The position numbers and the translations under genes are program-made. From the sequence record MN342151.1: a stretch of DNA of 64,000 nucleotides. One strand, given 5' to 3'. Positions 3,230 to 63,921 of this stretch are shown in pieces (position 1 is the stretch's first letter; every line of letters starts with the position of its first letter). Under the pieces are notes generated by a model. The model saw only the letters and a program-made list of their open reading frames with translations, ran no database searches and was not told the DNA's origin. The DNA is from Escherichia phage vB_EcoM_3HA14.

Positions 3230-3475
3230 ATGTTAAAATTATTGATACCAGCTTTAGTAGTCCTACTGGTTGGATGTAACCCTTCTTATGAGAATAAGGA
3301 TGCTTCTTACAGACTTCCTCCAGAAATGCAAGACTGCAAGATTTATAAACTTAATGGTGATGCCATTAGCAGGGATGTTATTGTAGTTCGCTGCCCAAAT
3401 TCTCAGACGACAACTTCTTACAAGTATGGGAAGAATAGTCAGTCACACACCACAGTTTTTGATGGGGGATATTAA
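3230..3475 (+). CDS. putative lipoprotein (81 aa)
   Basis: N-terminus MLKLLIPALVVLLVGCN has a signal sequence plus lipobox (LVGC); GAGG RBS upstream. Confidence 0.5.
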   Translation: MLKLLIPALVVLLVGCNPSYENKDASYRLPPEMQDCKIYKLNGDAISRDVIVVRCPNSQTTTSYKYGKNSQSHTTVFDGGY

Positions 3476-3683: not shown

Positions 3684-4213
3684 GTGAAAAAAGGTTATTC
3701 AAAGAGTCCTACAGTAATCTGAAGATGGGTTATCAAGGCTACTCAATACCTTGGTATGAAGATAAGAAAAAACAGTATTCAAACCCTTTTATATATCAAC
3801 CTGTAAAACTCTCTGTACTGGAGTTTTGGCATGAAACTGGAGCTACGCCATACCAATTTGACAACATGGAATATGCGCGTATTTGTAAAAGTCTTGGTGC
3901 AAGACAAGTTGATAATATCATTGAACATTTGAAGGATTTGTATAAAGATTTTGCTGGATACTTATACGAGAAACAGTTTGGGGAGTGCTTAAAATACCCA
4001 GATGGGTCACTTGTTCTGCTCTCATACATGTCTAATGGTAACATAAAAATTGCATACAAAGACCTGTGTGATAACTACTATGATTTTTATACTAGATTGA
4101 GACTACCATACCCAGATAGCTCCTTTTCCTTATCTAGCAATGCAATGACGCACTCTGGGAATATTGTTTCTGTTGAAAAATTAAAAAAGACGTGGGAGAA
4201 GAAAAATAAATGA
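3674..4213 (+). CDS. hypothetical protein (179 aa)
   Basis: Long ORF; start overlaps the previous stop. Confidence 0.45.
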   Translation: MAMSEKRLFKESYSNLKMGYQGYSIPWYEDKKKQYSNPFIYQPVKLSVLEFWHETGATPYQFDNMEYARICKSLGARQVDNIIEHLKDLYKDFAGYLYEKQFGECLKYPDGSLVLLSYMSNGNIKIAYKDLCDNYYDFYTRLRLPYPDSSFSLSSNAMTHSGNIVSVEKLKKTWEKKNK

Positions 4214-5310
4214 CAATTCTGTACAAACAAAATAAAGATGGTTCTTTCAACGTCTGGTCATGTGTTGCTGTAGGTGATAAAGTCGTCACAACTTATGGTA
4301 AAGAAAATGGCAAGATGATGTTTGAAGAGTACACAGCAGAGCCAAAGAACATCGGTAAGAAGAATGAGCGTAATGCTGAACAGCAAGCTCTTTTTGAAGT
4401 TGCTGCTAAGTACAAGAAGCAGGTTGACCGTAAAGGGTATGCTTACACAAAATCTGAAGCAGAGAATGTTGAAAAGGTTGGTGTACAGCTTGCTCAGGAT
4501 GCTTCCAAGATAAGTCACAAGAAGTATCTGGTATTTCCTGCCGATGCTCAACCTAAACTTGATGGGGTTCGTTGCAGGATTTCAAGAGATGCTGACTCAG
4601 AAAGTTTTACGGCATATTCTCGTGAGAACACGGTATACAACATTCCTGTAGAGTTGATTCCTGATGTTCTTCTTATGCTGAAACTGCACAAAGATGTTGA
4701 AGATTTCGATGGTGAGATTTATGCTCATGGTTGGGACTTGGAAGATATTGTATCTATGATTAAGAATGCTGACAATCCAGACCGTCACCTTCTTAAATTC
4801 TACTGGTATGATATCTGTGACAAGACTAAATCTTGGCCTGAGCGTCGTGAAGTTATTGATAATTCACCAATCGTTGAACTCGGTGATGCTTGCAGGGTTG
4901 TACCTGTTCAGACAATCCGTGTTAACTCTTGGGAAGAATTTGATAATGCTCATGACAACTGGGTTAAACTCAAGTTTGAAGGGGCAATGTATCGGTCAAT
5001 CTCACCAGATTCGTTCTATGAGTGTGGTCATCGCTCTTACTTCCTGATTAAGCACAAGAAGATGCACACACAGGAATTTAAAGTAACGGGTGTAAAGACT
5101 GATAAACGTGGTCATGGTAAGTTCGTTGTAGAGACTCTTCCTAACGTCTTTGTAGATGTTTCATGGAAAACTACACACGAGAAGAAAAAGTATCTTGCTG
5201 AACATCCTGAAGAGTTTATCGGGAAGCCTTTAACGGTTCAGTTCCAGAAGATGACTCGTAAGGGTTCTTTACAGTTCCCTGTTGGGCTAGTAATTCGAGA
5301 CTATGAATAG
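4210..5310 (+). CDS. ATP-dependent DNA ligase
   Basis: Adenylation motif I KxDG present as PKLDGVRC; size (366 aa) fits compact phage ligases. Confidence 0.8.
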   Translation: MTILYKQNKDGSFNVWSCVAVGDKVVTTYGKENGKMMFEEYTAEPKNIGKKNERNAEQQALFEVAAKYKKQVDRKGYAYTKSEAENVEKVGVQLAQDASKISHKKYLVFPADAQPKLDGVRCRISRDADSESFTAYSRENTVYNIPVELIPDVLLMLKLHKDVEDFDGEIYAHGWDLEDIVSMIKNADNPDRHLLKFYWYDICDKTKSWPERREVIDNSPIVELGDACRVVPVQTIRVNSWEEFDNAHDNWVKLKFEGAMYRSISPDSFYECGHRSYFLIKHKKMHTQEFKVTGVKTDKRGHGKFVVETLPNVFVDVSWKTTHEKKKYLAEHPEEFIGKPLTVQFQKMTRKGSLQFPVGLVIRDYE

Positions 5311-5318
5311 AGGTTAGT

Positions 5319-5468
5319 ATGTTTAGCACAATTATCCTGTTTGTTTTTGTTGTTTTATCATTATCTTACTTCATAAGTAAACTTTTAAGCATAACATACA
5401 AAGCAGCCTTAGCCCTTACTCTGTTGTCATTTGCAGTAAATGCAGCAGTTAGAATGTATTTAGTATAA
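5319..5468 (+). CDS. small hydrophobic protein (49 aa)
   Basis: Not in ORF track (under 60 aa). ATG 5319; product MFSTIILFVFVVLSLSYFISKLL... is largely hydrophobic. Confidence 0.3.
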   Translation: MFSTIILFVFVVLSLSYFISKLLSITYKAALALTLLSFAVNAAVRMYLV

Positions 5469-42219: not shown

Positions 42220-43100
42220 TTAAAGCAAAGACATATCCAGATTTTAAAGAGTTCGTTAAGGATTTTGTAGCGAATGTTAAAGCTGGCAAAAGATACGACT
42301 TCAGAAAGTATCAGGAGGCTGTTCTGCCTCTGACATATAGCTCACCGTGGCCTGAGTCTGATATTCCAGAAGTTACTGACTTCAATTACACGCCAGACTA
42401 CACAGTTCCATTTAGTGAAGAACTCTTATATTCAGTTGGTGCTCAGATGAGGACTGCTGACTTCTTCATGGACTTGCAGTATGCAATCATCAATGGGAAA
42501 GATGTTGATACAGTTTATTGTGAATGGTTGGCAAGGGTTAAACCTTTCTCCATGCTTAATGCAAAGTTGAAGGATGCAATCACACCTCCAGTTATTACAC
42601 AGCAGCCAACTGACCAAACTGTTAACGAGGGTGGAACACTTACACTTTCAGTTGTTGCTACTGGTGCAACTGGTTATCAGTGGAAGAAAGGTGCATCAAA
42701 CATCTCTGGAGCAACCTCTGCAACATATACTAAGAATGGCGTAGTCCCTACTGATGCTGGCGCATACACCTGTGTAGTTTCTGGTGAAGGTGGCTCAAGT
42801 GTTAATTCCAACGCTGCCACAGTAACTGTGAATGCACTGCCTGTGATTACACAGCAACCTACTAACCAAGAGATTACAGAGGGAGATACACTCACCCTTA
42901 GCATCGTAGCCACTGGTGCAACTGGTTATCAGTGGAAGAAAGATGATGTAGATATCCCTTCAGCAACATCTGCAACATATGAAAAGACACCGACTTCTAA
43001 AGCTGATGATGAAGGTACTTACTCTTGTGTTGTAACTGGTGTAGGTGGCTCAATCACATCCCAATCTGCCAAGGTGGTTATTAACGCAGTAGGAGGTTGA
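42216..43100 (+). CDS. protein with two tandem Ig-like domains (294 aa)
   Basis: C-terminal half is two about 82-aa repeats (PVITQQPT.Q...TLTLS.VATGATGYQWKK...SATSATY...Y.CVV.G.GGS) with alternating beta-strand pattern; N-domain paralogous to the upstream gene. Confidence 0.6.
   Translation: MIKAKTYPDFKEFVKDFVANVKAGKRYDFRKYQEAVLPLTYSSPWPESDIPEVTDFNYTPDYTVPFSEELLYSVGAQMRTADFFMDLQYAIINGKDVDTVYCEWLARVKPFSMLNAKLKDAITPPVITQQPTDQTVNEGGTLTLSVVATGATGYQWKKGASNISGATSATYTKNGVVPTDAGAYTCVVSGEGGSSVNSNAATVTVNALPVITQQPTNQEITEGDTLTLSIVATGATGYQWKKDDVDIPSATSATYEKTPTSKADDEGTYSCVVTGVGGSITSQSAKVVINAVGG
42583..43080 (+). repeat. tandem direct duplication (about 2 x 246 bp) encoding the two Ig-like domains
   Basis: Nucleotide-level repeat with an identical core ACTGGTGCAACTGGTTATCAGTGGAAGAAAG in both copies. 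Confidence 0.7.
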
Positions 43101-43567
43101 TAATGCAACTCTCAAGTAAAGGCTTAGAAGCCATTAAGTTCTTTGAAGGGCTTCGCTTAGAAGCTTATAAAGACTCTGCTGGAATCCCCACAATCGGCTA
43201 TGGAACAATCCGTATCAACGGAAGACCTGTTACGATGGGTATGAAAATTACTGCCGAGCAAGCTGAACAATATCTCCTTGCAGATGTTGAGAACTATGTA
43301 GGTGCAGTAAACAAAGCAATCAAGGTTCCAACTACTCAGAATGAGTTTGATGCACTTGTTGTAGAGACTTACAACATTGGTATCGATGCTATGCAGGATT
43401 CAACTTTTATCAAGCGTCACAATGCTGGTAATAAAGCTGGGTGTGCAGAAGCTATGCAGTGGTGGAACAAGATTACAGTGAATGGTCAAAAAGTAACTTC
43501 CAAGGGTCTACAAAATAGACGTAGTTTGGAAGCCAAGATTTACCTTGACGCTGTTTATCCAAAATAG
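43097..43567 (+). CDS. endolysin, T4-lysozyme-like (glycoside hydrolase family 24)
   Basis: N-terminal catalytic region EGLRLEAYKDSAGIPTIGYGT matches the T4 lysozyme pattern (catalytic Glu, Asp, Thr spacing). Confidence 0.85.
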   Translation: MIMQLSSKGLEAIKFFEGLRLEAYKDSAGIPTIGYGTIRINGRPVTMGMKITAEQAEQYLLADVENYVGAVNKAIKVPTTQNEFDALVVETYNIGIDAMQDSTFIKRHNAGNKAGCAEAMQWWNKITVNGQKVTSKGLQNRRSLEAKIYLDAVYPK

Positions 43568-46427: not shown

Positions 46428-46642
46428 AAAAGTTTACAACTCTAGGTGAATACTGGAAGCTCTCTGTTTCTGAGCAGTACAGACGAGCTAAGAAGACTAA
46501 ACAGTGTTATGGCAAATTTGCCAGAGGTGATATCTTAGTATGTACTGAAGAATCACTTAAGAATGTTACTCCAAGGGGTAAGACATTCCAGAGAATGATT
46601 GACAGAGAGTGGAATGCACGATTAAAGAGGATTGAACAATGA
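46424..46642 (+). CDS. hypothetical protein (72 aa)
   Basis: Coupled start/stop overlaps. Confidence 0.4.
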   Translation: MKKFTTLGEYWKLSVSEQYRRAKKTKQCYGKFARGDILVCTEESLKNVTPRGKTFQRMIDREWNARLKRIEQ

Positions 46643-47145
46643 TTTACGAAGATTCAAGAGACCAGATTTCTTATGAGCAATCTAAGCACCATGTATCTTT
46701 CAAGATTGTGAAAGCAAACGGTGAAGAAGGTACTATTTCACACTTCGGAGGTGAAAATTGGTTTGGTACAGGATGCTTTGAAGGTTACAGCAGAGAGTAC
46801 TTGAAAGCTTTCTACAGAGACTTCTCAGCAGACTACAACGAACTTATCAATCTTGAAAATAAGCGTAGAAATGCTGAACATAATACCAGAGGGTGGGCAG
46901 GAATAGCAATCATGTTATCTGTATTCCTTGCTATGATTTGTGTAATCTCCTTCGGTGGCATGTACATGCAGGATTTAACGTTTAACCAAGCTGAGAAGAA
47001 AATTTCTGAGATTTGGTTCTTGTATGTGATTCCAATAGTTGGTATCATCCTCTCATGTTTGAGAATGACAACTTACAAGAAGAAGATTGTAGAGTTTGAG
47101 AGTAAGTTTGAAGAGGTAAGTAAAGAATGCAACCTAAAATTTTAG
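46639..47145 (+). CDS. membrane protein (168 aa)
   Basis: Two hydrophobic segments in C-terminal half (WAGIAIMLSVFLAMICVISFGG; IWFLYVIPIVGIILSCL). Confidence 0.45.
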   Translation: MIYEDSRDQISYEQSKHHVSFKIVKANGEEGTISHFGGENWFGTGCFEGYSREYLKAFYRDFSADYNELINLENKRRNAEHNTRGWAGIAIMLSVFLAMICVISFGGMYMQDLTFNQAEKKISEIWFLYVIPIVGIILSCLRMTTYKKKIVEFESKFEEVSKECNLKF

Positions 47146-52169: not shown

Positions 52170-52310
52170 TTACTTGTTTTGATTCTGCATTGCAAGTAGT
52201 TTTTTATCAAAAACTTTATCTGAGATTTCACCAATGATGAGCATTGCTAATGGCAACACAACAGAAACAATCATACCGCAAAGGATAGGGTTTTTAATGA
52301 TATCTAGCAT
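52170..52310 (-). CDS. small membrane protein (46 aa)
   Basis: Not in ORF track. Hydrophobic product MLDIIKNPILCGMIVSVVLPLAMLIIGE...; C-terminus ...LAMQNQNK identical to the end of gene 55622..55969; preceded by a truncated cassette. Confidence 0.35.
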   Translation of the reverse strand: MLDIIKNPILCGMIVSVVLPLAMLIIGEISDKVFDKKLLAMQNQNK

Positions 52311-55621: not shown

Positions 55622-55969
55622 TTACTTGTTTTGATTCTGCATTGCAAGCTCTTTTTTATTAATTTCTTGTGCTATCACGATATAATAATCTTTTAGGTTT
55701 ATGTCTTGAATTGACTCTAGAAGTATGTCATAATCACTGATTAATTTAAAATCACCGTCTAGAATGTTATCAATCCGGTATGTCTCTGCTTTAAATCGAA
55801 AGCTCATCTCTAAACGTTTCAATTGTTCTAAGCTCAAACGCTCTAAAAAGCCCCGTACAAGATTTATTTTTAAATCCCTTGTAAGTGCCTTATTAGCTAT
55901 ACTGTGCGCTTGCAAAGCTTTATAGAGCGCCACAATAGAGATAAAAATAGCAGTGTATGTGATTAACAT
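55622..55969 (-). CDS. membrane-anchored protein (115 aa)
   Basis: N-terminal TM-like MLITYTAIFISIVALY; C-terminal ...ELAMQNQNK shared with the 46-aa gene at 52170..52310. Confidence 0.45.
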   Translation of the reverse strand: MLITYTAIFISIVALYKALQAHSIANKALTRDLKINLVRGFLERLSLEQLKRLEMSFRFKAETYRIDNILDGDFKLISDYDILLESIQDINLKDYYIVIAQEINKKELAMQNQNK

Positions 55970-58647: not shown

Positions 58648-59499
58648 TTAGTTACGTGCTTCAACATAGCTTACGTTTTCATGTGTGATATAATCTTCTG
58701 CAAACTCTTCTGTAGTCGCATTGATATATACACTTGCATCATCACTAAACGTTACCGCTCTGTGGTGGTGGCCTTGTAACGGGTGGGTAACTTGAGCGTT
58801 ACTTCGATTGTACTTCTCAACCGGAGGGTAACTGGTGTGTACCTTGCCATTACGCTTCACCTTGAGGGTAACTTTATCCTTGCCTACCACAGCAACACCA
58901 TCAAAGTATTGAGGCTCACTGAAGTTCTCCCAACCAGTAACAGGATTAGTCAACTGACTGTACATCTTATCTTCATAGACATACATATAAACGTCAACAT
59001 CCTTCATAGTCTGGTTGATAATGGACAGTACAGCCATGCTATCAAGACCACCAATCCCTGCACCAACCATTGGAAGCCCAACTTTCTTAAGTTGGTTAAC
59101 TTTACAGTAGTTATTAAGACGCTGTAAAGCTGCTTCTAAGGCGTTGTATCGTGCATCTTTGCCAGTGATAACCTGAGTGTAAAGGTTAGCAATTCGACCC
59201 TGCTTAAAACGTGCTACAGAGATGTTACCAAGCATTAGATGCTTAGGGTTATGATTTTCACCACCTACTGTAGCATAAACTTCAGCGTCAGTTTCATAAG
59301 CTTTTGGGTAGCGTTTAGCAATTGTTGCTGCGATACCTGCACCCATCAAGTTCATGCAGTTACAGCCGTGACCAATGATATCAAACTTCTTACCATCAAA
59401 GTCTTTAAAGATATCACCTTTAATAATTTTTACGATACCCATATTAGTAATGCTCCCAACGTTCGTTATCTTCAGATGGTTTAACTCGGTTACCTTCAT
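58648..59499 (-). CDS. macro-domain protein (TARG1/DarG-like ADP-ribose-binding or hydrolase fold) with C-terminal extension
   Basis: GDIF...DIIGHGCNCMNLMGAGIAATIAKRYP and VGLPMVGAGIGGLD match the Gly-rich ADP-ribose-binding loops of macro domains; about 110 aa extra C-terminal region with a His-rich patch. Confidence 0.6.
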   Translation of the reverse strand: MKVTELNHLKITNVGSITNMGIVKIIKGDIFKDFDGKKFDIIGHGCNCMNLMGAGIAATIAKRYPKAYETDAEVYATVGGENHNPKHLMLGNISVARFKQGRIANLYTQVITGKDARYNALEAALQRLNNYCKVNQLKKVGLPMVGAGIGGLDSMAVLSIINQTMKDVDVYMYVYEDKMYSQLTNPVTGWENFSEPQYFDGVAVVGKDKVTLKVKRNGKVHTSYPPVEKYNRSNAQVTHPLQGHHHRAVTFSDDASVYINATTEEFAEDYITHENVSYVEARN

Positions 59500-59861: not shown

Positions 59862-60165
59862 ACATCACCTTTTCAGTTATCTCAAACAGGTCAACATGTT
59901 CGATGCTTTCAATATGGATACCAACTTTTGCATAGCGTTCTTTAACATTCTCTGCATTAAGCCATATCAGACACCAATGATTCTCTATGGATTCTTCAAG
60001 CTTGTCAACACAATCTTTAAAAGATTTCATATCTCCACGAGTGCCAATGAATGCAACAACCCCATAGAGAAATTCTTTACCACTGTGACAGACTTGTGCT
60101 GTACCAATTTCCTTTTCACCGTCTGAGAAGACGGCTACATAATTCTTACCATCTAGTTGCATCAC
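59836..60165 (-). CDS. hypothetical protein (109 aa)
   Basis: ORF. Confidence 0.4.
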   Translation of the reverse strand: MMQLDGKNYVAVFSDGEKEIGTAQVCHSGKEFLYGVVAFIGTRGDMKSFKDCVDKLEESIENHWCLIWLNAENVKERYAKVGIHIESIEHVDLFEITEKVMYENSVNQK

Positions 60166-60171
60166 TAACCC

Positions 60172-60441
60172 TCACTTCCTCGTTTTAAGGACTGCATAGA
60201 TTTCTTTAGAATCTTCCCCGAACCATGTGTAGTGATTCTCGTTGATTTCAGGATGGTTGTCAACACGTATTTTGCAATCTCTTCCAACATGTTTAAGTTG
60301 TGCAGAAACACCCTGCATAAAGATGTGACAAGTTACATCATCCATAACCGTTGGCATAATGTCAAATCTCATGTAAGTGTTACTTGGTCTTGGTAACAGA
60401 AGATAACCTTCCACAAAAAATGTTTCATTCTTCTCTGTCAT
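60172..60441 (-). CDS. hypothetical protein (89 aa)
   Basis: ORF. Confidence 0.4.
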   Translation of the reverse strand: MTEKNETFFVEGYLLLPRPSNTYMRFDIMPTVMDDVTCHIFMQGVSAQLKHVGRDCKIRVDNHPEINENHYTWFGEDSKEIYAVLKTRK

Positions 60442-60707
60442 TACTGCTTATTCCCTAACAAAATCATATCAATTAAATTGTTTGCCTTAATAGTACATTC
60501 ATAGTAACCATCACGATAAAACTCAAGAGCACTTGCAAGGTCTTCACCTTTAGTACCTTTAACCTCATACCGTGCTTCTTCTTGAGTGTACTTGTCACTC
60601 TCACTTACTTGGGAGTTTTTGAAGGTACTGTTCACTTTGTTCGTTGAACACCCTGACATAAGGCTCAGTAGCACAATCATTAATAAAGACTGTCTTAGTT
60701 TTTTCAT
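60441..60707 (-). CDS. lipoprotein (88 aa), o-spanin-like candidate
   Basis: Signal sequence with lipobox LMSGC; its start lies inside the 3' end of the upstream membrane-protein gene in another frame. Confidence 0.4.
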   Translation of the reverse strand: MKKLRQSLLMIVLLSLMSGCSTNKVNSTFKNSQVSESDKYTQEEARYEVKGTKGEDLASALEFYRDGYYECTIKANNLIDMILLGNKQ

Positions 60708-60948
60708 AGTTCAATACCTCTTTGGTGTGTTTGTTTTTAGCAAGCACATCTTTCAAATCATTTTTGTAATTGGAGCTAAGATTTGATAAACCCTCTTGAT
60801 AAGCATCTTTAGCAACACTCACAAGTCTCTGGTTAGTTAACTCCTTTTCATTAACTTGGCTGGTCTTGTAAGTGTAACCTCCCCAAGCACCAACACCTGT
60901 TAAGAAAATGATTACAAAAGCTGCTTGACAAAATTCTTTAAACGTCAT
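60601..60948 (-). CDS. N-terminally anchored membrane protein (115 aa), i-spanin-like candidate
   Basis: N-terminal TM-like FVIIFLTGVGAWGG followed by charged coiled-coil-like region; overlaps the lipoprotein gene by about 107 nt. Confidence 0.4.
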   Translation of the reverse strand: MTFKEFCQAAFVIIFLTGVGAWGGYTYKTSQVNEKELTNQRLVSVAKDAYQEGLSNLSSNYKNDLKDVLAKNKHTKEVLNYEKTKTVFINDCATEPYVRVFNEQSEQYLQKLPSK

Positions 60949-60964
60949 TTAACTTCTCCTAGAA

Positions 60965-60990
60965 ATGAAAAAGGCTCCCGAAGGAGCCTC
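60965..60990 (-). terminator. rho-independent terminator
   Basis: On - strand: GAGGCTCC-TTCG-GGAGCC followed by TTTTTCATTT. Confidence 0.55.
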
Positions 60991-61000
60991 TATAATAACT

Positions 61001-61465
61001 TTAACCAAGAACTTTCGCAAGGACATTTGCTGCCATTGTTGAGGCTTTTGAAGCAGCAGCTACGCCAGCCTTAATGGTATTGTCCTTAATCGCAGAAACC
61101 GTTGCAGTATCTGTGAAGAGGTAAGTGGTAGTCTGAGAACCACTTGTAAAGGAAAGCATAAGAGCAGTTTCCAGATTGAAAGAACGGTAAGGAGCACCGG
61201 ATTGTACAATCCCTTTTGCACCTAACTCTGAAGCCATACCCATATCATAGATAGTCATCAGATTTTCTTTATGAGCAGTAGTTGAACCAACACCCTTAAC
61301 GTGTTTTGTGACATTCAACATTGCACGATACTCACGAATGTTACCATCAGCTTTCACGTTTACTGCACGAAAGATTTTACCATCGAAATTACTTTTGATA
61401 ATCTCACGAACTACCTGTGATTTGTTACCGGAAGCATCGATAGCTACTGTAATAATGTTTTGCAT
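61001..61465 (-). CDS. hypothetical protein (154 aa)
   Basis: ORF followed by terminator. Confidence 0.45.
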   Translation of the reverse strand: MQNIITVAIDASGNKSQVVREIIKSNFDGKIFRAVNVKADGNIREYRAMLNVTKHVKGVGSTTAHKENLMTIYDMGMASELGAKGIVQSGAPYRSFNLETALMLSFTSGSQTTTYLFTDTATVSAIKDNTIKAGVAAASKASTMAANVLAKVLG

Positions 61466-61476
61466 GGTTTACTCTC

Positions 61477-62172
61477 TCAGTTTTTAACAAGCATTGTTTT
61501 GATGTGTGGTAAGATTCTTTCAACCTTCTCCACGTTCTTCACTGTATCTTCTATAAAGCATACTACATCATAGTAAGGTAGAATGCAAGACTGAAGCATA
61601 CGAACTTTCAAACTTTCTGCACTAATCTCATTGTCACCAAATCCACGCATAAACAGTAGGAAATCACTGTCTACATTCTCATTCAGGAAAAGATGTGTGA
61701 CAACTCTTTGTGATTCACCACGAGCGGTTAAGAATCCTATATCAGCATTTCTTGATATACCACACAGAATGTTAAAAACATATGTTGGTTTAGCTCTGCA
61801 AGATTCTACCAAATCAGTATACTGTGAGTAAGTACCATCAGTTAGCAGAGTTGCATTAAGCTCCTTATTAAAGCTTGTAAGAACACCGTCAATGTCTGCT
61901 AAGACCATTTTACGTTTTTCTTCCAAGTTCTTTGCAACCAAGATAAGGCTGTTACGACCAACATATACAGTTTTACCTGTTAGCAAATCCTGACAAGGAA
62001 TCTGTGTCTTTGTTGAGTGGAAGTCTTCAAAGCTACACACAACATATCTTGCTGTATCTGCAAAGTCAGCTTTAGCAATATCTGACCAACTTGCAGAACT
62101 GATATCTAAATCAAGTGGCTTAATATCATAAGCATGACACAGAACCATATCAAATTGTTTTGATTCGCTCAT
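61477..62172 (-). CDS. HAD-family phosphatase-like protein (231 aa), possible 5'-nucleotidase
   Basis: Motif I-like VLADIDGVL (hhhDxDGxL) at residue about 100; later FIEDT resembles motif IV. Confidence 0.4.
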   Translation of the reverse strand: MSESKQFDMVLCHAYDIKPLDLDISSASWSDIAKADFADTARYVVCSFEDFHSTKTQIPCQDLLTGKTVYVGRNSLILVAKNLEEKRKMVLADIDGVLTSFNKELNATLLTDGTYSQYTDLVESCRAKPTYVFNILCGISRNADIGFLTARGESQRVVTHLFLNENVDSDFLLFMRGFGDNEISAESLKVRMLQSCILPYYDVVCFIEDTVKNVEKVERILPHIKTMLVKN

Positions 62173-62722
62173 ATTTTACCTTTTTAATGTTTGTTGCAAA
62201 CTCACATTGAGCCAGCAGTTTCATGTTATTGTACACATCTTGAGAGTATTGTCTAGCCTTTGGAATCTTGTATTTGTAACCAGCATTATAAGAAGCTAGG
62301 ACACGCTTCATAGGGTACTTTCCATCTGGGTTACCATGAACCTTAGTCCAGAATAATAGCTCCTTATGAGCCTCTTTCGCTGAGTAATGGAAGTCACTTA
62401 CTAGCTTCTTCTTAGCAACCTTTGGAGATACCTTGTTACGCTTTACAACAGTCTTCAAGTGATTCTGGAAAACACCATAATCATGAGTCTTTTTATTTTC
62501 TAACATGACACCTAATTGTGACTCTTGTAAGGCTATAGCTGCTAAAGGGATTCCCCAACCTTTTCCCATCTGCCCTTCGCCATAGTTATATGCTTTTAAC
62601 ATATTAACTTTCTGGCTGATTGTAAGCTCTGGACAGTCAGATGCTGTAGCTAAATGTGCTGTAAAGAATAAGCACAAACCTAAAACAAATTTCTTCATTT
62701 GCACTCCTATTTTGTTAAACAT
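62150..62722 (-). CDS. secreted lytic transglycosylase-like protein (190 aa)
   Basis: N-terminal signal peptide (MKKFVLGLCLFFTAHLATA); AIALQESQLG resembles the SLT-domain catalytic Glu-Ser motif. Confidence 0.5.
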   Translation of the reverse strand: MFNKIGVQMKKFVLGLCLFFTAHLATASDCPELTISQKVNMLKAYNYGEGQMGKGWGIPLAAIALQESQLGVMLENKKTHDYGVFQNHLKTVVKRNKVSPKVAKKKLVSDFHYSAKEAHKELLFWTKVHGNPDGKYPMKRVLASYNAGYKYKIPKARQYSQDVYNNMKLLAQCEFATNIKKVKYERIKTI

Positions 62723-62754
62723 GCAGACAATTATACACTAACCTGCACATTTTT

Positions 62755-62785
62755 CAAATAAAAAAGGCTGCCGAAGCAGCCCCTT
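62755..62785 (-). terminator. rho-independent terminator
   Basis: On - strand: GGGGCTGC-TTCG-GCAGCC followed by TTTTTTATTT. Confidence 0.55.
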
Positions 62786-62799
62786 TAGGAATTTACTTA

Positions 62800-63921
62800 T
62801 TAAACTTCACGTTTACGCTGAGAAATCAGTTCACCAGCAGTACCTACAACTACGTGGAGTGCTTCTGAACCATCCCACTCTTTGATGACTTCGCGACGAC
62901 TATTTACAATCGCTGCAACTTCATAGCGGGAAGCTCGCATTTTCATGTCGTTGTAGTCAGTTGGTACTGAAACAACATCACGAGGATGAACACGAACTTT
63001 CAGGATAGTGTCACCAGAGAAGCTAGTTACATAATCCCAAGCACCAACGTGCAGACCCTGAGAGCAGGTTACATGACGATTATTATCAACCATCCAACGT
63101 GGCATCTCTACAATGTTACCCAAATCATTTGGAACTTTGCAGGTACGAGAGTCAAACAGTTTACCACTACGAGTTGTGACTTTCTTCCAGCCGATGATAT
63201 AACCTTCTTCATCAATTTCAACATCAAGGTGTGATACGAAGCCCCAAAGTTGTTCTACAGAGTCTTTTGATGGGTTTTCCATCAGTTTTTCGAAGAATGC
63301 AATCAGTCGAACAAAACCATTATCACCTTTCTTCATCATATCCAGAATACGGTCTACCAGAGTTGAGCGCATCTGAACAGCACCGTAATACAGGTTGTCA
63401 CCTTTGATGGTTACAGCACCTTGAGTGAAGTTCTCAATAGACTTGCGAATGTTCATCAGTTCAAAAGCTTTCTTGTACTCACCTGAAACAACAGCCATTA
63501 CAATATCAGTGTAGTTAGGATGAGTTGACTCAACAATCTCAGACTCTGCACCGAAAGTCATGATAACAGAATCACCAGTAATCATGTATTCAATCTGGCT
63601 GTTATTCTGCATTGCTTCATGCAGAGCATTCACAGGTTCTGCTTTGACTGCTTCTTTAACAGCTTTTGCAACAGGTTTCTGCTTAGATACTTTCTTGGTT
63701 GCTTTAGCTTTCTTAGCACTCTTTGCAATATCTTTCAGAGTCTTTGCAGGTTTTGCTTTGGTTTTCCCTGACAGCAGCGTTGCTTCATGACGCTCTACAG
63801 CACGACCTACCGAACGGGTTGAAGTGTTATACTTCAGAGCAATTGCAGTTTTGGTAAGTTTACCTTCTTTAACCAGTGCATAGATTTCTGCGTCGATTTG
63901 TGCTTTAGTCTTAGTAGTCAT
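62800..63921 (-). CDS. DNA-binding-like protein: N-terminal HTH-like segment, Lys/Ala-rich linker, about 270-aa C-terminal domain (373 aa)
   Basis: TKTAIALKYNTSTRSVGRAVER looks HTH-like; KAKPAKTLKDIAKSAKKAKATKKVSKQKPVAKAVKEAVKAEP is histone-H1-like low complexity; C-domain unassigned. Confidence 0.5.
   Translation of the reverse strand: MTTKTKAQIDAEIYALVKEGKLTKTAIALKYNTSTRSVGRAVERHEATLLSGKTKAKPAKTLKDIAKSAKKAKATKKVSKQKPVAKAVKEAVKAEPVNALHEAMQNNSQIEYMITGDSVIMTFGAESEIVESTHPNYTDIVMAVVSGEYKKAFELMNIRKSIENFTQGAVTIKGDNLYYGAVQMRSTLVDRILDMMKKGDNGFVRLIAFFEKLMENPSKDSVEQLWGFVSHLDVEIDEEGYIIGWKKVTTRSGKLFDSRTCKVPNDLGNIVEMPRWMVDNNRHVTCSQGLHVGAWDYVTSFSGDTILKVRVHPRDVVSVPTDYNDMKMRASRYEVAAIVNSRREVIKEWDGSEALHVVVGTAGELISQRKREV

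What the first reader, a model, noticed from the sequence alone, without database searches (positions are those of the whole stretch)
60441..62722. Second lysis-like locus: overlapping membrane-protein/lipoprotein pair plus secreted transglycosylase-like protein, far from the endolysin
A gene for an N-terminally anchored coiled-coil protein overlaps, in another frame, a lipoprotein gene; this is the classic i-spanin/o-spanin arrangement. Two genes away is a signal-peptide protein with an SLT-like catalytic motif. The T4-lysozyme-like endolysin is about 17 kb away on the other strand, so lysis functions appear split across two loci. The lipoprotein is not Pro-rich, so the spanin call is tentative.
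Basis: partly seen in the sequence, partly recalled or inferred. Interest (0 to 1): 0.45.

Follow-up and report, generated by a model that had tools for sequence, protein, structure and literature searches.

The report
Known phage spanin pair plus Vs.1-like transglycosylase
This stretch of a Felix O1-like (Mooglevirus) phage genome carries an already catalogued pair of overlapping "spanin" genes, which break the outer membrane at lysis, and nearby a secreted cell-wall-cutting enzyme related to the uncharacterised T4 protein Vs.1; it is real but ordinary.

Summary
The window is a Mooglevirus (Ounavirinae) phage, 98-99% identical to Shigella phages Sf13-Sf19.

**Observation.** It holds. A 115-aa N-terminally anchored protein (60601-60948, minus strand) overlaps by 107 nt, in another frame, an 88-aa lipoprotein (60441-60707). 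Two genes upstream lies a signal-peptide protein with SLT motifs. A GH24 endolysin sits 16.9 kb away on the plus strand.

**Spanin call.** It is well supported.
- The pair is conserved throughout Ounavirinae.
- Both halves are homologous to the i-/o-spanin pair in the holin-endolysin-spanin cassette of phage Sergei.
- One periplasmic Cys is invariant in each protein.
- GenBank records and Kongari et al. 2018 (family "JH2") already list these spanins.
- The missing prolines are a quirk of the Felix/Moogle branch; more distant relatives have 1-4.

**SLT-like protein.** It is a genuine GH23-type lytic-transglycosylase fold with a Sec signal peptide. It is a homolog of T4 Vs.1, an uncharacterised early ORF. 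It has its own promoter. A terminator and two unrelated genes separate it from the spanins. I found no evidence that it works in lysis.

**Verdict.** Already known; low interest. "Lysis genes are scattered" is right and resembles T4. "A second lysis locus that includes the transglycosylase" is not supported.

The parts
60601..60948 (-). i-spanin: 115 aa, N-terminal transmembrane anchor at about residues 6-24, and an 88-aa periplasmic domain. Its conserved C-terminal motif is EKTKxVFxNxCxxxxYxxxFN, containing the invariant Cys92.
   Evidence: ORF with an AGGAG ribosome-binding site 8 nt upstream. PHROG 1152 'Rz-like spanin', E=6.8e-38. Annotated as i-spanin in Sf13, Sf18, Moogle and Mushroom. 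An Ounavirinae profile scores 43.5 bits against the i-spanin of phage Sergei and 60.2 bits against that of KBNP1711; the best shuffled control scored 8.5 bits. Alignment A4.
60441..60707 (-). o-spanin: 88-aa prolipoprotein with signal peptide MKKLRQSLLMIVLLSLMSG, lipid-attachment Cys20 and Ser at +2. The mature protein is 69 aa: a Pro-free polar linker followed by a conserved C-terminal segment, LEFYRDGYYECTIKANNLIDMIL, containing the invariant Cys71.
   Evidence: ORF with an AGAGG ribosome-binding site 9 nt upstream of ATG 60707. Lipobox and composition. Alignment A3. An Ounavirinae profile of the mature part scores 34.0 bits against the Sergei o-spanin and 30.9 bits against the overlapped KBNP1711 ORF; the best shuffled control scored 7.2 bits. 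AlphaFold2 gave a low-confidence model (pLDDT 53.5) with residues 19-53 disordered and a helix at 54-84.
60970..60991 (-). GC-rich hairpin followed by a T-run (terminator-like), directly upstream of the i-spanin ribosome-binding site. It separates the spanin genes from the upstream genes.
   Evidence: Terminator scan. Its position is conserved, with different but still complementary stems, in Mushroom, Hafnia Zyzzx and Erwinia FIfi106 (alignment A6).
62150..62698 (-). Secreted Vs.1-like lytic transglycosylase (GH23/SLT fold), 182 aa. It has a Sec signal peptide (residues 1-19, cleavage after ATA), the catalytic motif E59-S60, and the motifs G75-x-F-Q-N, S136-Y-N-A-G and Y151. Cys22 and Cys165 are conserved.
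   Evidence: Alignments A1 and A2. Pfam SLT matches 10 of 11 family members, although this sequence itself scores 16 bits against a cut-off of 21.3. AlphaFold2 pLDDT 77.8. The best Foldseek PDB matches are all GH23 enzymes: a Ralstonia chitinase, goose-type lysozyme, phiKZ gp144, MltD and MltF. BFVD viral SLT proteins match at TM about 0.7. Profile match to EtgA (8urn), E=1e-5. T4 Vs.1: BLASTP E=2e-14, hhalign probability 99.7%.
62730..62757 (-). Sigma-70-like promoter (TTGAAA, 16-nt spacer, TATAAT) in front of the Vs.1-like gene. It follows the rIIB stop codon and a GGCTGC-TTCG-GCAGCC hairpin with T-run at about 62760-62781.
   Evidence: Promoter scan, 11 of 12 matches. The hairpin is read directly from the sequence. 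The -10 box and the hairpin are conserved in Mushroom; the hairpin is also conserved in Hafnia Zyzzx.
61477..62172 (-). Intervening gene, not a lysis gene. It is annotated 'polynucleotide kinase' in relatives, but only a HAD phosphatase-like C-terminal part (about residues 85-220) is recognisable.
   Evidence: Pfam HAD_PNKP, weak (E=0.015). PHROG 3970 and 415. BLASTP against T4 PseT aligns only with the phosphatase half of PseT, residues 158-289.
61001..61465 (-). Intervening gene, 154 aa, of unknown function, with no membrane segment. Listed for context only.
   Evidence: PHROG 2267, unknown function. No Pfam hit.
43097..43567 (+). Canonical cytoplasmic endolysin (GH24, T4-lysozyme-like, no signal sequence). 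It is the presumed muralytic partner of the spanins and lies 16.9 kb away.
   Evidence: ORF. PHROG 7 endolysin, E=3.7e-56. Annotated as a GH24 lysozyme in Sf13.

Best explanation
Genes 60601-60948 and 60441-60707 encode the two-component spanin of a Mooglevirus phage. Shown here: the anatomy, its conservation and its homology to known spanins.

Inferred mechanism, by analogy with lambda Rz/Rz1 and T4 PseT.3/PseT.2:
- The i-spanin sits in the inner membrane through its N-terminal anchor.
- The o-spanin is lipidated on Cys20 and sorted to the outer membrane.
- Their conserved C-terminal segments, each carrying one invariant Cys, bind each other across the periplasm and are stabilised by disulfide bonds.
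- The complex is held within the peptidoglycan mesh until the distant GH24 endolysin, released by a holin that remains unidentified, degrades the wall. The complexes then fuse the inner and outer membranes and complete lysis.

The upstream gene 62150-62698 is a separate, independently transcribed gene. It encodes a Sec-exported, EtgA-like GH23 lytic transglycosylase homologous to T4 Vs.1. It most likely cuts or remodels peptidoglycan locally in the periplasm from early in infection. It is not demonstrably part of the lysis pathway.

Scattering of lysis genes is the normal state in this phage group, as it is in T4.
For: **Identity of the phage and prior annotation**
- 98-99% nucleotide identity to Sf13-Sf19, whose records annotate i-spanin, o-spanin and 'putative lysin' at these positions.
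- Kongari et al. 2018 list Felix01, Moogle and Mushroom in the overlapped 'JH2' i- and o-spanin families (PMC6139136).

**Spanin anatomy**
- Transmembrane anchor, lipobox with Ser at +2, and a 107-nt out-of-frame overlap.
- Each gene has its own ribosome-binding site.

**Conservation**
- 291 phage records match the i-spanin and 266 match the o-spanin.
- The overlap is kept in Hafnia and Erwinia Ounavirinae and in KBNP1711.

**Homology of both halves to a pair inside a canonical cassette**
- Phage Sergei carries holin-endolysin-holin-i-spanin/o-spanin.
- Profile scores against the Sergei proteins are 43.5 bits (i-spanin) and 34.0 bits (o-spanin); shuffled controls reached at most about 8 bits.
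- i-spanin C92 and o-spanin C71 are invariant.

**No competitor in the window**
- A lipobox scan found no other lipoprotein gene overlapping or abutting a membrane-anchor gene in these 64 kb.

**SLT-like protein**
- Conserved ES, GxFQN, SYNAG and Y motifs.
- Pfam SLT in 10 of 11 relatives.
- GH23 fold.
- Profile match to EtgA.
- T4 Vs.1 homology.
- Own promoter and terminator.
Against: - No member of this spanin family has been tested experimentally, as far as the searched literature shows.
- The mature o-spanin has no proline, unlike lambda Rz1.
- Coiled-coil propensity of the i-spanin was not demonstrated.
- The AlphaFold2 model of the o-spanin has low confidence.
- The i-spanin is preceded by a terminator-like hairpin and no convincing promoter, so how and when it is expressed is unknown.
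- Only 64 kb of a genome of about 88 kb was searched for competing spanin candidates.
- For the SLT-like protein, this sequence falls below Pfam's own threshold (16 vs 21.3 bits), PDB fold matches have only moderate TM-scores (about 0.5), and enzymatic activity is inferred only.
Confidence: 0.85

Rival explanations
1. One reading: the spanin pair and the exported transglycosylase form one functional 'second lysis module'. The Sec-exported enzyme degrades the wall without needing a holin, and the neighbouring spanins then break the outer membrane, acting as a back-up or accessory to the distant endolysin.
For: The protein has a Sec signal peptide and an intact catalytic Glu-Ser motif. It has the GH23 fold. 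It lies within 1.2-3.2 kb of the spanins in Mooglevirus, Felixounavirus, Hafnia and Erwinia Ounavirinae. No holin gene is annotated or recognisable in the window.
Against: - A conserved terminator hairpin and two to six unrelated genes separate it from the spanins.
- It has its own early-type sigma-70-like promoter.
- In more distant phages its conserved neighbours are rIIB and PNKP genes.
- Homologous spanin pairs in Sergei and KBNP1711 have no such neighbour.
- Its T4 homolog vs.1 lies about 73 kb from pseT.2/pseT.3.
- From my own knowledge: T4 e (endolysin) mutants fail to lyse although they keep vs.1, so a Vs.1-type enzyme does not suffice for lysis there.
- Linkage within Ounavirinae may simply reflect colinear genomes.
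Confidence: 0.12
2. The overlapping pair is not a spanin but another envelope function. For example, a superinfection-exclusion or receptor-masking lipoprotein (in the manner of T5 Llp or Cor) with a membrane partner, expressed early among host-takeover genes.
For: The pair sits in a block of small genes of unknown function next to rIIA/rIIB and a macro-domain gene, not next to the endolysin. The o-spanin's PHROG family (4180) is labelled 'unknown function'. The mature protein has no proline and probably a structured C-terminus. No experiment exists.
Against: Both proteins are homologous, outside their signal and anchor segments, to the pair embedded in the Sergei holin-endolysin cassette. The architecture, the outer-membrane sorting signal and one invariant Cys in each partner match the spanin definition. 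The i-spanin hits PHROG 1152 'Rz-like spanin' at E=7e-38. T4's proven spanins are likewise remote from e and t and sit among early genes (PMC6139136). No other spanin candidate was found in the window.
Confidence: 0.05
3. The SLT-like protein is catalytically weak or inactive and acts mainly as a periplasmic peptidoglycan-binding or regulatory protein. For example, it could modulate host lytic enzymes or lysis inhibition together with the rII proteins.
For: It is conserved next to rIIB in several lineages. This sequence falls below Pfam's SLT threshold. Constitutive export of a fully active muralytic enzyme from early in infection would risk premature lysis (inference).
Against: Among 42 divergent family members, the catalytic Glu and two Tyr residues (Y137 of the SYNAG motif and Y151) are invariant; the adjacent Ser and N138 and G140 of SYNAG are conserved in at least 90%. 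That pattern is expected for an active enzyme. The closest solved relative by sequence profile, EtgA, is an active specialised transglycosylase (plus my own knowledge).
Confidence: 0.1

Closest known systems
'JH2' overlapped two-component spanin family of Kongari et al. 2018 (Felix O1, Moogle, Mushroom, EC6, WV8 and others); annotated i-/o-spanins of Shigella phages Sf13-Sf19
   Same: These are the same genes. The i-spanin is 100% identical at protein level to that of Sf13, and the region is 98-99% identical at DNA level. The overlapped architecture is the same.
   Different: Nothing substantive. The Sf13 GenBank record starts the o-spanin at an internal Met (65 aa, leaving only 10 residues before the lipobox Cys). 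ATG 60707, with its ribosome-binding site and a basic n-region, is the better start, as annotated in Mushroom.
Spanin pair of Salmonella phage Sergei (Sashavirus) and of phiEco32-like phage KBNP1711
   Same: Both components are homologous. They share the i-spanin motif EKTxxVFxNxCxxxxYxxxxN and the o-spanin motif (E/D)x(Y/W)xDxYxxCxxxxNGL(I/V). The genes overlap in all of them, and the Cys residues are invariant.
   Different: In Sergei the pair lies in a classic holin-endolysin-holin-spanin cassette; here it is 17 kb from the endolysin. The outgroup o-spanins have 3-4 Pro and a second Cys in the linker; this one has 0 Pro and one Cys.
T4 PseT.3/PseT.2 spanins
   Same: They form a functional two-component spanin encoded far from the endolysin and holin, among early genes. 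The T4 o-spanin family has no proline-rich region and has a predicted C-terminal helix (PMC6139136). In both phages the pair lies one or two genes from a PNKP-type gene.
   Different: There is no detectable sequence similarity. The T4 genes have what Kongari et al. call a 'separated' architecture (PMC6139136), sharing only a few bases at the junction in the T4 record, against a 107-nt overlap here. T4 has 0 Cys in the i-spanin and 2 in the o-spanin, against 1 and 1 here.
Lambda Rz/Rz1
   Same: The same class: a type II inner-membrane protein plus an outer-membrane lipoprotein encoded in different frames, with periplasmic Cys residues.
   Different: No sequence or Pfam relationship. Rz1 is wholly embedded in Rz and has 10 Pro in 40 residues (PMC6139136). 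Here the genes only overlap and the o-spanin has no Pro.
T4 Vs.1 (NP_049725), an uncharacterised conserved early ORF of T4-like phages
   Same: Homolog of the SLT-like protein: 31% identity, E=2e-14, hhalign probability 99.7%. The two have the same length (181-182 aa), a signal peptide and the same ES, GxFQN and SYNxG motifs. Marginal SLT similarity of vs.1 was noted by Nolan et al. 2006 (PMC1524935).
   Different: The genomic neighbours differ: regB and vs in T4, rIIB and a HAD phosphatase here. The Cys22/Cys165 pair is absent from T4 Vs.1. Neither protein has a demonstrated function.
EtgA-type 'specialised' lytic transglycosylases of secretion systems (PDB 8urn) and other GH23 enzymes (goose-type lysozyme, MltD/MltF, phiKZ gp144)
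   Same: The GH23 fold and the catalytic Glu-Ser, GxxQ and AYNxG motifs. Like EtgA, it is a small periplasmic single-domain protein of about 160-180 aa.
   Different: The sequence relationship is distant (profile E=1e-5, 13-18% identity in fold matches). It is encoded by a phage, not by a secretion-system locus.

Membership tests
Two-component spanin (functional class; Kongari 'JH2' overlapped family) | i-spanin: a single N-terminal transmembrane anchor (N-in, C-out) with a largely helical periplasmic domain | tested here: met
   One hydrophobic segment at residues 6-24 (KD 1.62) and a short N-terminus. No Pro, and only one Gly, between residues 28 and 95. Topology and helicity are inferred. 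Coiled-coil propensity was not shown.
Two-component spanin (functional class; Kongari 'JH2' overlapped family) | o-spanin: signal peptidase II signal with a lipobox Cys and an outer-membrane sorting residue (not Asp) at +2 | tested here: met
   MKKLRQSLLMIVLLSLMSG-C20-S21. The lipobox Cys is invariant in 10 of 10 aligned homologs.
Two-component spanin (functional class; Kongari 'JH2' overlapped family) | The o-spanin gene is embedded in, overlapping, or immediately after the i-spanin gene | tested here: met
   A 107-nt overlap in a different frame. Overlaps of 134-170 nt in Hafnia, Erwinia, KBNP1711 and Sergei.
Two-component spanin (functional class; Kongari 'JH2' overlapped family) | At least one periplasmic Cys available for intermolecular disulfide bonding | tested here: met
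   i-spanin C92 and o-spanin C71 are invariant in alignments A4 and A3. Actual disulfide formation was not tested.
Two-component spanin (functional class; Kongari 'JH2' overlapped family) | Homology to spanins located in a recognised lysis cassette, or listed in the curated family | tested here: met
   Profile scores against the Sergei cassette pair are 43.5 and 34.0 bits. PHROG 1152 at E=7e-38. Felix01, Moogle and Mushroom are listed in family JH2 (PMC6139136).
Two-component spanin (functional class; Kongari 'JH2' overlapped family) | Required for outer-membrane disruption; complements lambda Rz/Rz1 mutants | not testable with these tools
   No experimental report was found for this family.
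Lambda Rz/Rz1 sequence families | Sequence membership in the lambda Rz and Rz1 families, and a proline-rich region in the o-spanin | tested here: not met
   No Pfam family matched the i-spanin. The only o-spanin match was a below-cut-off one to an unrelated family (tRNA_anti-like, E=0.037). The mature o-spanin has 0 Pro.
T4 PseT.3/PseT.2 spanin family | Sequence similarity to PseT.3 and PseT.2, separated gene architecture, and two conserved Cys in the o-spanin | tested here: not met
   BLASTP E=3.1 for the i-spanins and no alignment for the o-spanins. A 107-nt overlap rather than the 'separated' architecture. One Cys in each partner.
SLT / GH23 family-1 lytic transglycosylase | Catalytic Glu-Ser motif plus the GxxQ, AYNxG and downstream Tyr motifs | tested here: met
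   E59 and Y151 are invariant, and S60, G75, N138 and G140 are at least 90% conserved, in 42 divergent homologs. The aligned motifs match EtgA.
SLT / GH23 family-1 lytic transglycosylase | Pfam PF01464 match above the curated threshold | tested here: inconclusive
   This sequence scores 16 bits against a cut-off of 21.3. Ten of 11 family members match at E<=0.01, the best at 2.6e-6.
SLT / GH23 family-1 lytic transglycosylase | Lysozyme-like GH23 fold | tested here: met
   AlphaFold2 pLDDT 77.8. The twelve best PDB matches are all GH23 enzymes, with probability 0.94-1.0 and TM 0.46-0.55. Viral SLT proteins match at TM 0.65-0.70, E down to 3.5e-8.
SLT / GH23 family-1 lytic transglycosylase | Cleaves the MurNAc-GlcNAc bond, forming 1,6-anhydroMurNAc | not testable with these tools
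   Needs a biochemical assay.
T4 Vs.1 family | Full-length sequence homology to T4 Vs.1, with an N-terminal signal peptide | tested here: met
   BLASTP 31% identity over residues 1-155 of 182, E=2e-14. hhalign probability 99.7%, E=1e-26. Both proteins begin with a hydrophobic signal peptide.

The most novel reading that the evidence does not exclude
The Vs.1-family exported transglycosylase is conserved next to rIIB or PNKP genes in Felix O1-like phages and in two more distant phage contigs, and homologs occur in T4-like and other large myophages. It might be a holin-independent periplasmic wall-remodelling enzyme with a real role in the infection cycle. For example, it could pre-weaken or re-pattern peptidoglycan so that spanins and endolysin finish lysis quickly, or it could take part in lysis inhibition or superinfection control together with rII.

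A second, smaller possibility: the single invariant Cys in each spanin partner forms a heterotypic i-o disulfide, rather than the homotypic links seen in lambda and T4.
Probability: 0.15. Interest if true: 0.45.

Novelty: already known. Interest (0 to 1): 0.15.

Why it matters
It matters little beyond annotation quality. The spanin pair is already in public annotations and in the main spanin survey, and scattered lysis genes are well known from T4.

What this check adds:
- It fixes the o-spanin start codon.
- It shows that the o-spanin family, not only the i-spanin family, reaches phiEco32-like and Sasha-like phages.
- It shows that a proline-free o-spanin is compatible with family membership.
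- It identifies the 'putative lysin' (mislabelled 'RegB-like endoribonuclease' in one record) as a T4 Vs.1 homolog with a GH23 fold.

The only open biological question is the role of Vs.1-type secreted transglycosylases, together with the still unidentified holin of Ounavirinae.

Tried and rejected
- **PDB sequence searches with the SLT-like protein.** The single sequence and the 11-sequence profile gave only spurious hits (ankyrin design, PRP4 kinase). Only the 42-sequence profile reached EtgA and c-type lysozymes.
- **NCBIfam and PADLOC.** No hits for any gene in the locus, so there is no support for a defence or anti-defence reading.
- **Word-indexed protein searches for the two spanins.** They returned only close relatives, at least 61% identical. 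Diversity had to come from phage-record tblastn.
- **Direct comparison with T4 PseT.3/PseT.2.** No homology. The shared proximity to a PNKP-type gene is therefore recorded only as a curiosity.
- **Heptad (coiled-coil) test on the i-spanin.** My own crude test was not significant, so the 'coiled-coil' label is unverified rather than refuted.
- **AlphaFold2 of the o-spanin.** Confidence was too low (pLDDT 53.5) to say more than 'disordered linker plus probable C-terminal helix'.
- **Promoter for the spanin genes.** I considered the 9-of-12 match at 61020-60992. It is poorly conserved even in Mushroom, so I rejected it.
- **Other spanin or holin candidates in the window.** One extra lipoprotein (3230-3475) has no membrane-protein partner. 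Several small membrane proteins have no annotated function.
- **Literature.** Searches for experimental work on Felix O1-group spanins, on Vs.1 and on Felixounavirus transcription timing found nothing usable.

Full report
**What the window is.** Bases 60000-63000 are 98-99% identical over their full length to Shigella phages Sf13-Sf19. They are about 97% identical to Citrobacter phage Michonne (Mooglevirus, Ounavirinae, the Felix O1 group). In all, 257 phage records match. In those records the genes under the finding are annotated, in transcription order on the minus strand, as:
- rIIB
- hypothetical protein, 'putative lysin' or 'lysozyme-domain protein'
- 'polynucleotide kinase'
- hypothetical protein
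- i-spanin
- o-spanin
- several hypothetical proteins
- macro-domain protein

.

**Checking the observation.** ORF listing and direct reading confirm a 115-aa ORF at 60601-60948 and an 88-aa ORF at 60441-60707. Both are on the minus strand, share 107 nt and differ in frame.
- The 115-aa protein has one hydrophobic stretch at residues 6-24 and an 88-residue polar tail. The tail has no Pro, and only one Gly, up to residue 95.
- The 88-aa protein starts MKKLRQSLLMIVLLSLMSG-C-S. That is a basic n-region, a hydrophobic core, the lipobox LMSGC, and Ser at +2, which is compatible with outer-membrane sorting.
- Each gene has its own Shine-Dalgarno sequence: AGGAG before ATG 60948 and AGAGG before ATG 60707.
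- The Sf13 GenBank record starts the o-spanin at a later Met, leaving only ten residues before the Cys. The longer form, used in the phage Mushroom record, is clearly better.
It does have one further Cys, C71.
- The GH24 endolysin is at 43097-43567 on the plus strand, 16.9 kb away, and has no signal sequence.

My crude heptad test did not support a coiled coil beyond chance (330 of 2000 shuffles). That adjective is therefore unverified.

**Is the pair a spanin?** Several independent lines say yes.
1. PHROG 1152 'Rz-like spanin' matches the 115-aa protein at E=7e-38.
2. The pair is conserved. tblastn finds the i-spanin in 291 phage records and the o-spanin in 266. In the distant Ounavirinae Hafnia phage Zyzzx and Erwinia phage FIfi106, the same two overlapping ORFs occur in the same synteny.
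3. The family reaches beyond Ounavirinae.
   - The phiEco32-like phage KBNP1711 has a homologous i-spanin with an unannotated overlapping lipoprotein ORF.
   - Salmonella phage Sergei has a homologous pair inside a textbook holin-endolysin-holin-i-spanin/o-spanin cassette.
   - I built profiles from Ounavirinae sequences only, with the anchor and signal peptide removed. Against Sergei they score 43.5 bits (i-spanin) and 34.0 bits (o-spanin). Against KBNP1711 they score 60.2 and 30.9 bits. The best of 500 shuffles per comparison reached at most 8.5 bits.
4. The alignments (A3 and A4) show that conservation is concentrated in the two C-terminal segments, each with one invariant Cys.
   - i-spanin: EKTKxVFxNxC92xxxxYxxxFN.
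   - o-spanin: LE(F/W)YxDxYxxC71xxxxNxLI(D/E).
   - This is what one expects if the C-termini form the i-o interface and disulfides stabilise the complex, as established for lambda and T4 (Kongari et al. 2018, PMC6139136).
5. Kongari et al. already list Felix01, Moogle, Mushroom and others in their overlapped 'JH2' i- and o-spanin families.
6. A lipobox scan of the whole window found only one other lipoprotein candidate, at 3230-3475. It has no membrane-anchor partner.

**The proline issue.** Proline counts in the mature o-spanin:

| Group | Pro in mature o-spanin |
|---|---|
| Moogle and Felix-type sequences | 0 |
| One more divergent metagenomic homolog (P0187) | 1 |
| Hafnia and Erwinia phages | 2-3 |
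| KBNP1711 and Sergei | 3-4 |

Proline sits only in the variable linker and has been lost in this branch. Kongari et al. note that the experimentally validated T4 o-spanin also lacks a proline-rich region and has a predicted C-terminal helix. An AlphaFold2 model of the o-spanin has low confidence (pLDDT 53.5). It suggests the same layout: residues 19-53 disordered and a helix at 54-84. Lack of proline therefore does not weaken the spanin call. There is no sequence relationship to lambda Rz/Rz1 or to T4 PseT.3/PseT.2. The pair is a spanin by class and by its own family, not a member of those families.

**The transglycosylase-like protein.**
- *Start and signal peptide.* The real start is most likely ATG 62698, which has an AGGAG site and is conserved in Mushroom. 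This gives 182 aa, as in GenBank. The ATG at 62722 lies 8 nt after the -10 box and is not conserved. The N-terminus MKKFVLGLCLFFTAHLATA|SD is a typical Sec signal peptide, not a lipobox.
- *Family size.* The single sequence falls below Pfam's SLT threshold (16 bits vs 21.3). Ten of 11 relatives match SLT. An exhaustive profile search finds 624 cluster representatives, most of the 150 listed being about 160-210 aa long.
- *Conserved residues.* In 42 divergent members, E59, Y137 and Y151 are invariant. S60, G63, G75, N138 and G140 are at least 90% conserved. These are the ES, GxxQ, AYNxG and Tyr motifs of family-1 lytic transglycosylases.
- *Fold.* The AlphaFold2 model (pLDDT 77.8) matches GH23 enzymes first in the PDB: a Ralstonia GH23 chitinase, goose-type lysozyme, phiKZ gp144, MltD and MltF, at probability up to 1.0 and TM about 0.5. 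It matches small phage 'SLT domain' proteins in BFVD at TM about 0.7.
- *Closest solved relative.* The family profile hits the type III secretion transglycosylase EtgA (8urn) at E=1e-5 across the catalytic motifs.
- *T4 homolog.* Following a remark in Nolan et al. 2006 (PMC1524935), I compared it with T4 Vs.1. The two are 31% identical, E=2e-14, hhalign probability 99.7%.

The 'putative lysin' is therefore the Felix O1-group ortholog of T4 Vs.1, a conserved early ORF with no assigned function. This also explains the odd 'RegB-like endoribonuclease' label in phage Mushroom, because vs.1 is the neighbour of regB in T4.

**Do the two form one lysis locus?** The evidence is against it.
- The Vs.1-like gene follows a hairpin terminator after rIIB and a near-consensus sigma-70-like promoter (TTGAAA, 16-nt spacer, TATAAT, at 62757-62730). 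That suggests early, independent expression.
- Two unrelated genes lie between it and the spanins.
- A GC-rich hairpin with a T-run also lies between them (60991-60970). It is conserved in position, with different complementary stems, in four lineages.
- In more distant phages the conserved neighbours of the SLT-like gene are rIIB and PNKP-type genes.
- The homologous spanins of Sergei and KBNP1711 have no such neighbour.
- In T4, vs.1 and the spanins are about 73 kb apart. From established T4 genetics (my own knowledge), endolysin (e) mutants do not lyse despite having vs.1.

The scattering of lysis genes is real. It is also the known state of affairs in T4 (Kongari et al., Fig. 8 legend) and throughout Ounavirinae. 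No holin is annotated or recognisable in the window.

**Mechanism (best reading, confidence about 0.85 for the spanin part).**
- *Shown:* the anatomy, the conservation, the homology to cassette-borne spanins and the invariant Cys residues.
- *Inferred:* inner-membrane anchoring of the 115-aa protein. Lipidation and outer-membrane sorting of the 69-aa mature lipoprotein. C-terminal i-o binding with disulfide stabilisation. Fusion of inner and outer membranes once the distant GH24 endolysin has removed the peptidoglycan.
- *Vs.1-like protein:* it is most likely an exported, active, local peptidoglycan-cleaving enzyme. Its place in the infection cycle is unknown.

**Novelty and score.** The spanins are already annotated and catalogued, and no experiment on this family was found. 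The transglycosylase belongs to a known but uncharacterised phage family. The finding is correct in its facts, ordinary in its meaning and over-reads the linkage. Interest is about 0.15.

Noticed in passing
window 61477-62172 (-): The gene annotated 'polynucleotide kinase' in relatives resembles only the HAD phosphatase half of T4 PseT (DxDG motif 'DIDGVL'; alignment to PseT residues 158-289). It has an unrelated 85-aa N-terminus and no recognisable kinase domain, so the product name is probably wrong. A distant relative of the SLT-like gene (L011) is followed by a full-length kinase-plus-phosphatase PNKP.
   Followed up: partly
window 60441-62172 vs L006 (T4 134002-135781): In T4 the spanin genes pseT.3 and pseT.2 lie directly upstream of pseT.1 and pseT (PNKP). 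Here the spanins lie one gene downstream of a PNKP-phosphatase-like gene. The spanins themselves share no detectable sequence similarity, so this may be coincidence or a very old linkage.
   Followed up: partly
window 60970-60991 (-) and alignment A6: A terminator-like hairpin directly upstream of the i-spanin ribosome-binding site is conserved in position in Mooglevirus, Felixounavirus, Hafnia and Erwinia phages. The stems differ in sequence but remain complementary. No convincing promoter lies between it and the gene, so spanin expression may depend on read-through, or the hairpin may be a processing or stabilising element.
   Followed up: partly
window 3230-3475 (+): A second predicted lipoprotein (81 aa, MLKLLIPALVVLLVG-C-N..., PHROG 902, unknown function) lies between the DNA polymerase and a 366-aa ORF that I did not annotate (4210-5310). 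It has no overlapping or adjacent membrane-anchor gene and no C-terminal transmembrane segment, so it is not a spanin candidate. It may be a superinfection-exclusion type lipoprotein.
   Followed up: partly
window 5319-5468 (+), 46639-47145 (+), 52170-52310 (-), 55622-55969 (-): Small predicted membrane proteins of unknown function: 49 aa with 2 transmembrane segments, 168 aa with 2, 46 aa with 1, and 115 aa with an N-terminal one. No holin is annotated in this phage group, and these are the only holin or antiholin candidates I saw in the window.
   Followed up: partly
GenBank records of relatives (L001 Sf13; L008 Mushroom; L004 FIfi106; L007 KBNP1711): Annotation inconsistencies. The Sf13 o-spanin starts at an internal Met (65 aa). 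The Mushroom Vs.1-like gene is labelled 'endoribonuclease, T4 RegB-like'. FIfi106 and KBNP1711 do not annotate the overlapping o-spanin ORF at all. Two published Felixounavirus genome papers report 'only i-spanin' or 'only o-spanin' found (PMC8300805, PMC9951933), probably for the same reason.
   Followed up: yes
window 58648-59499 (-) and L014 (T4 tk.4, 60922-61389): A macro-domain protein (Pfam Macro, E=5e-7) lies downstream in the same gene block as the Vs.1-like gene. In T4, the macro-domain gene tk.4 lies two genes from vs.1. I did not test whether the two macro proteins are orthologous.
   Followed up: no
window 62150-62698 (-), residues C22 and C165: Two Cys residues, one just after the signal-peptide cleavage site and one near the C-terminus, are invariant in the 11 closest homologs but absent from T4 Vs.1. 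This suggests a subfamily-specific periplasmic disulfide.
   Followed up: partly
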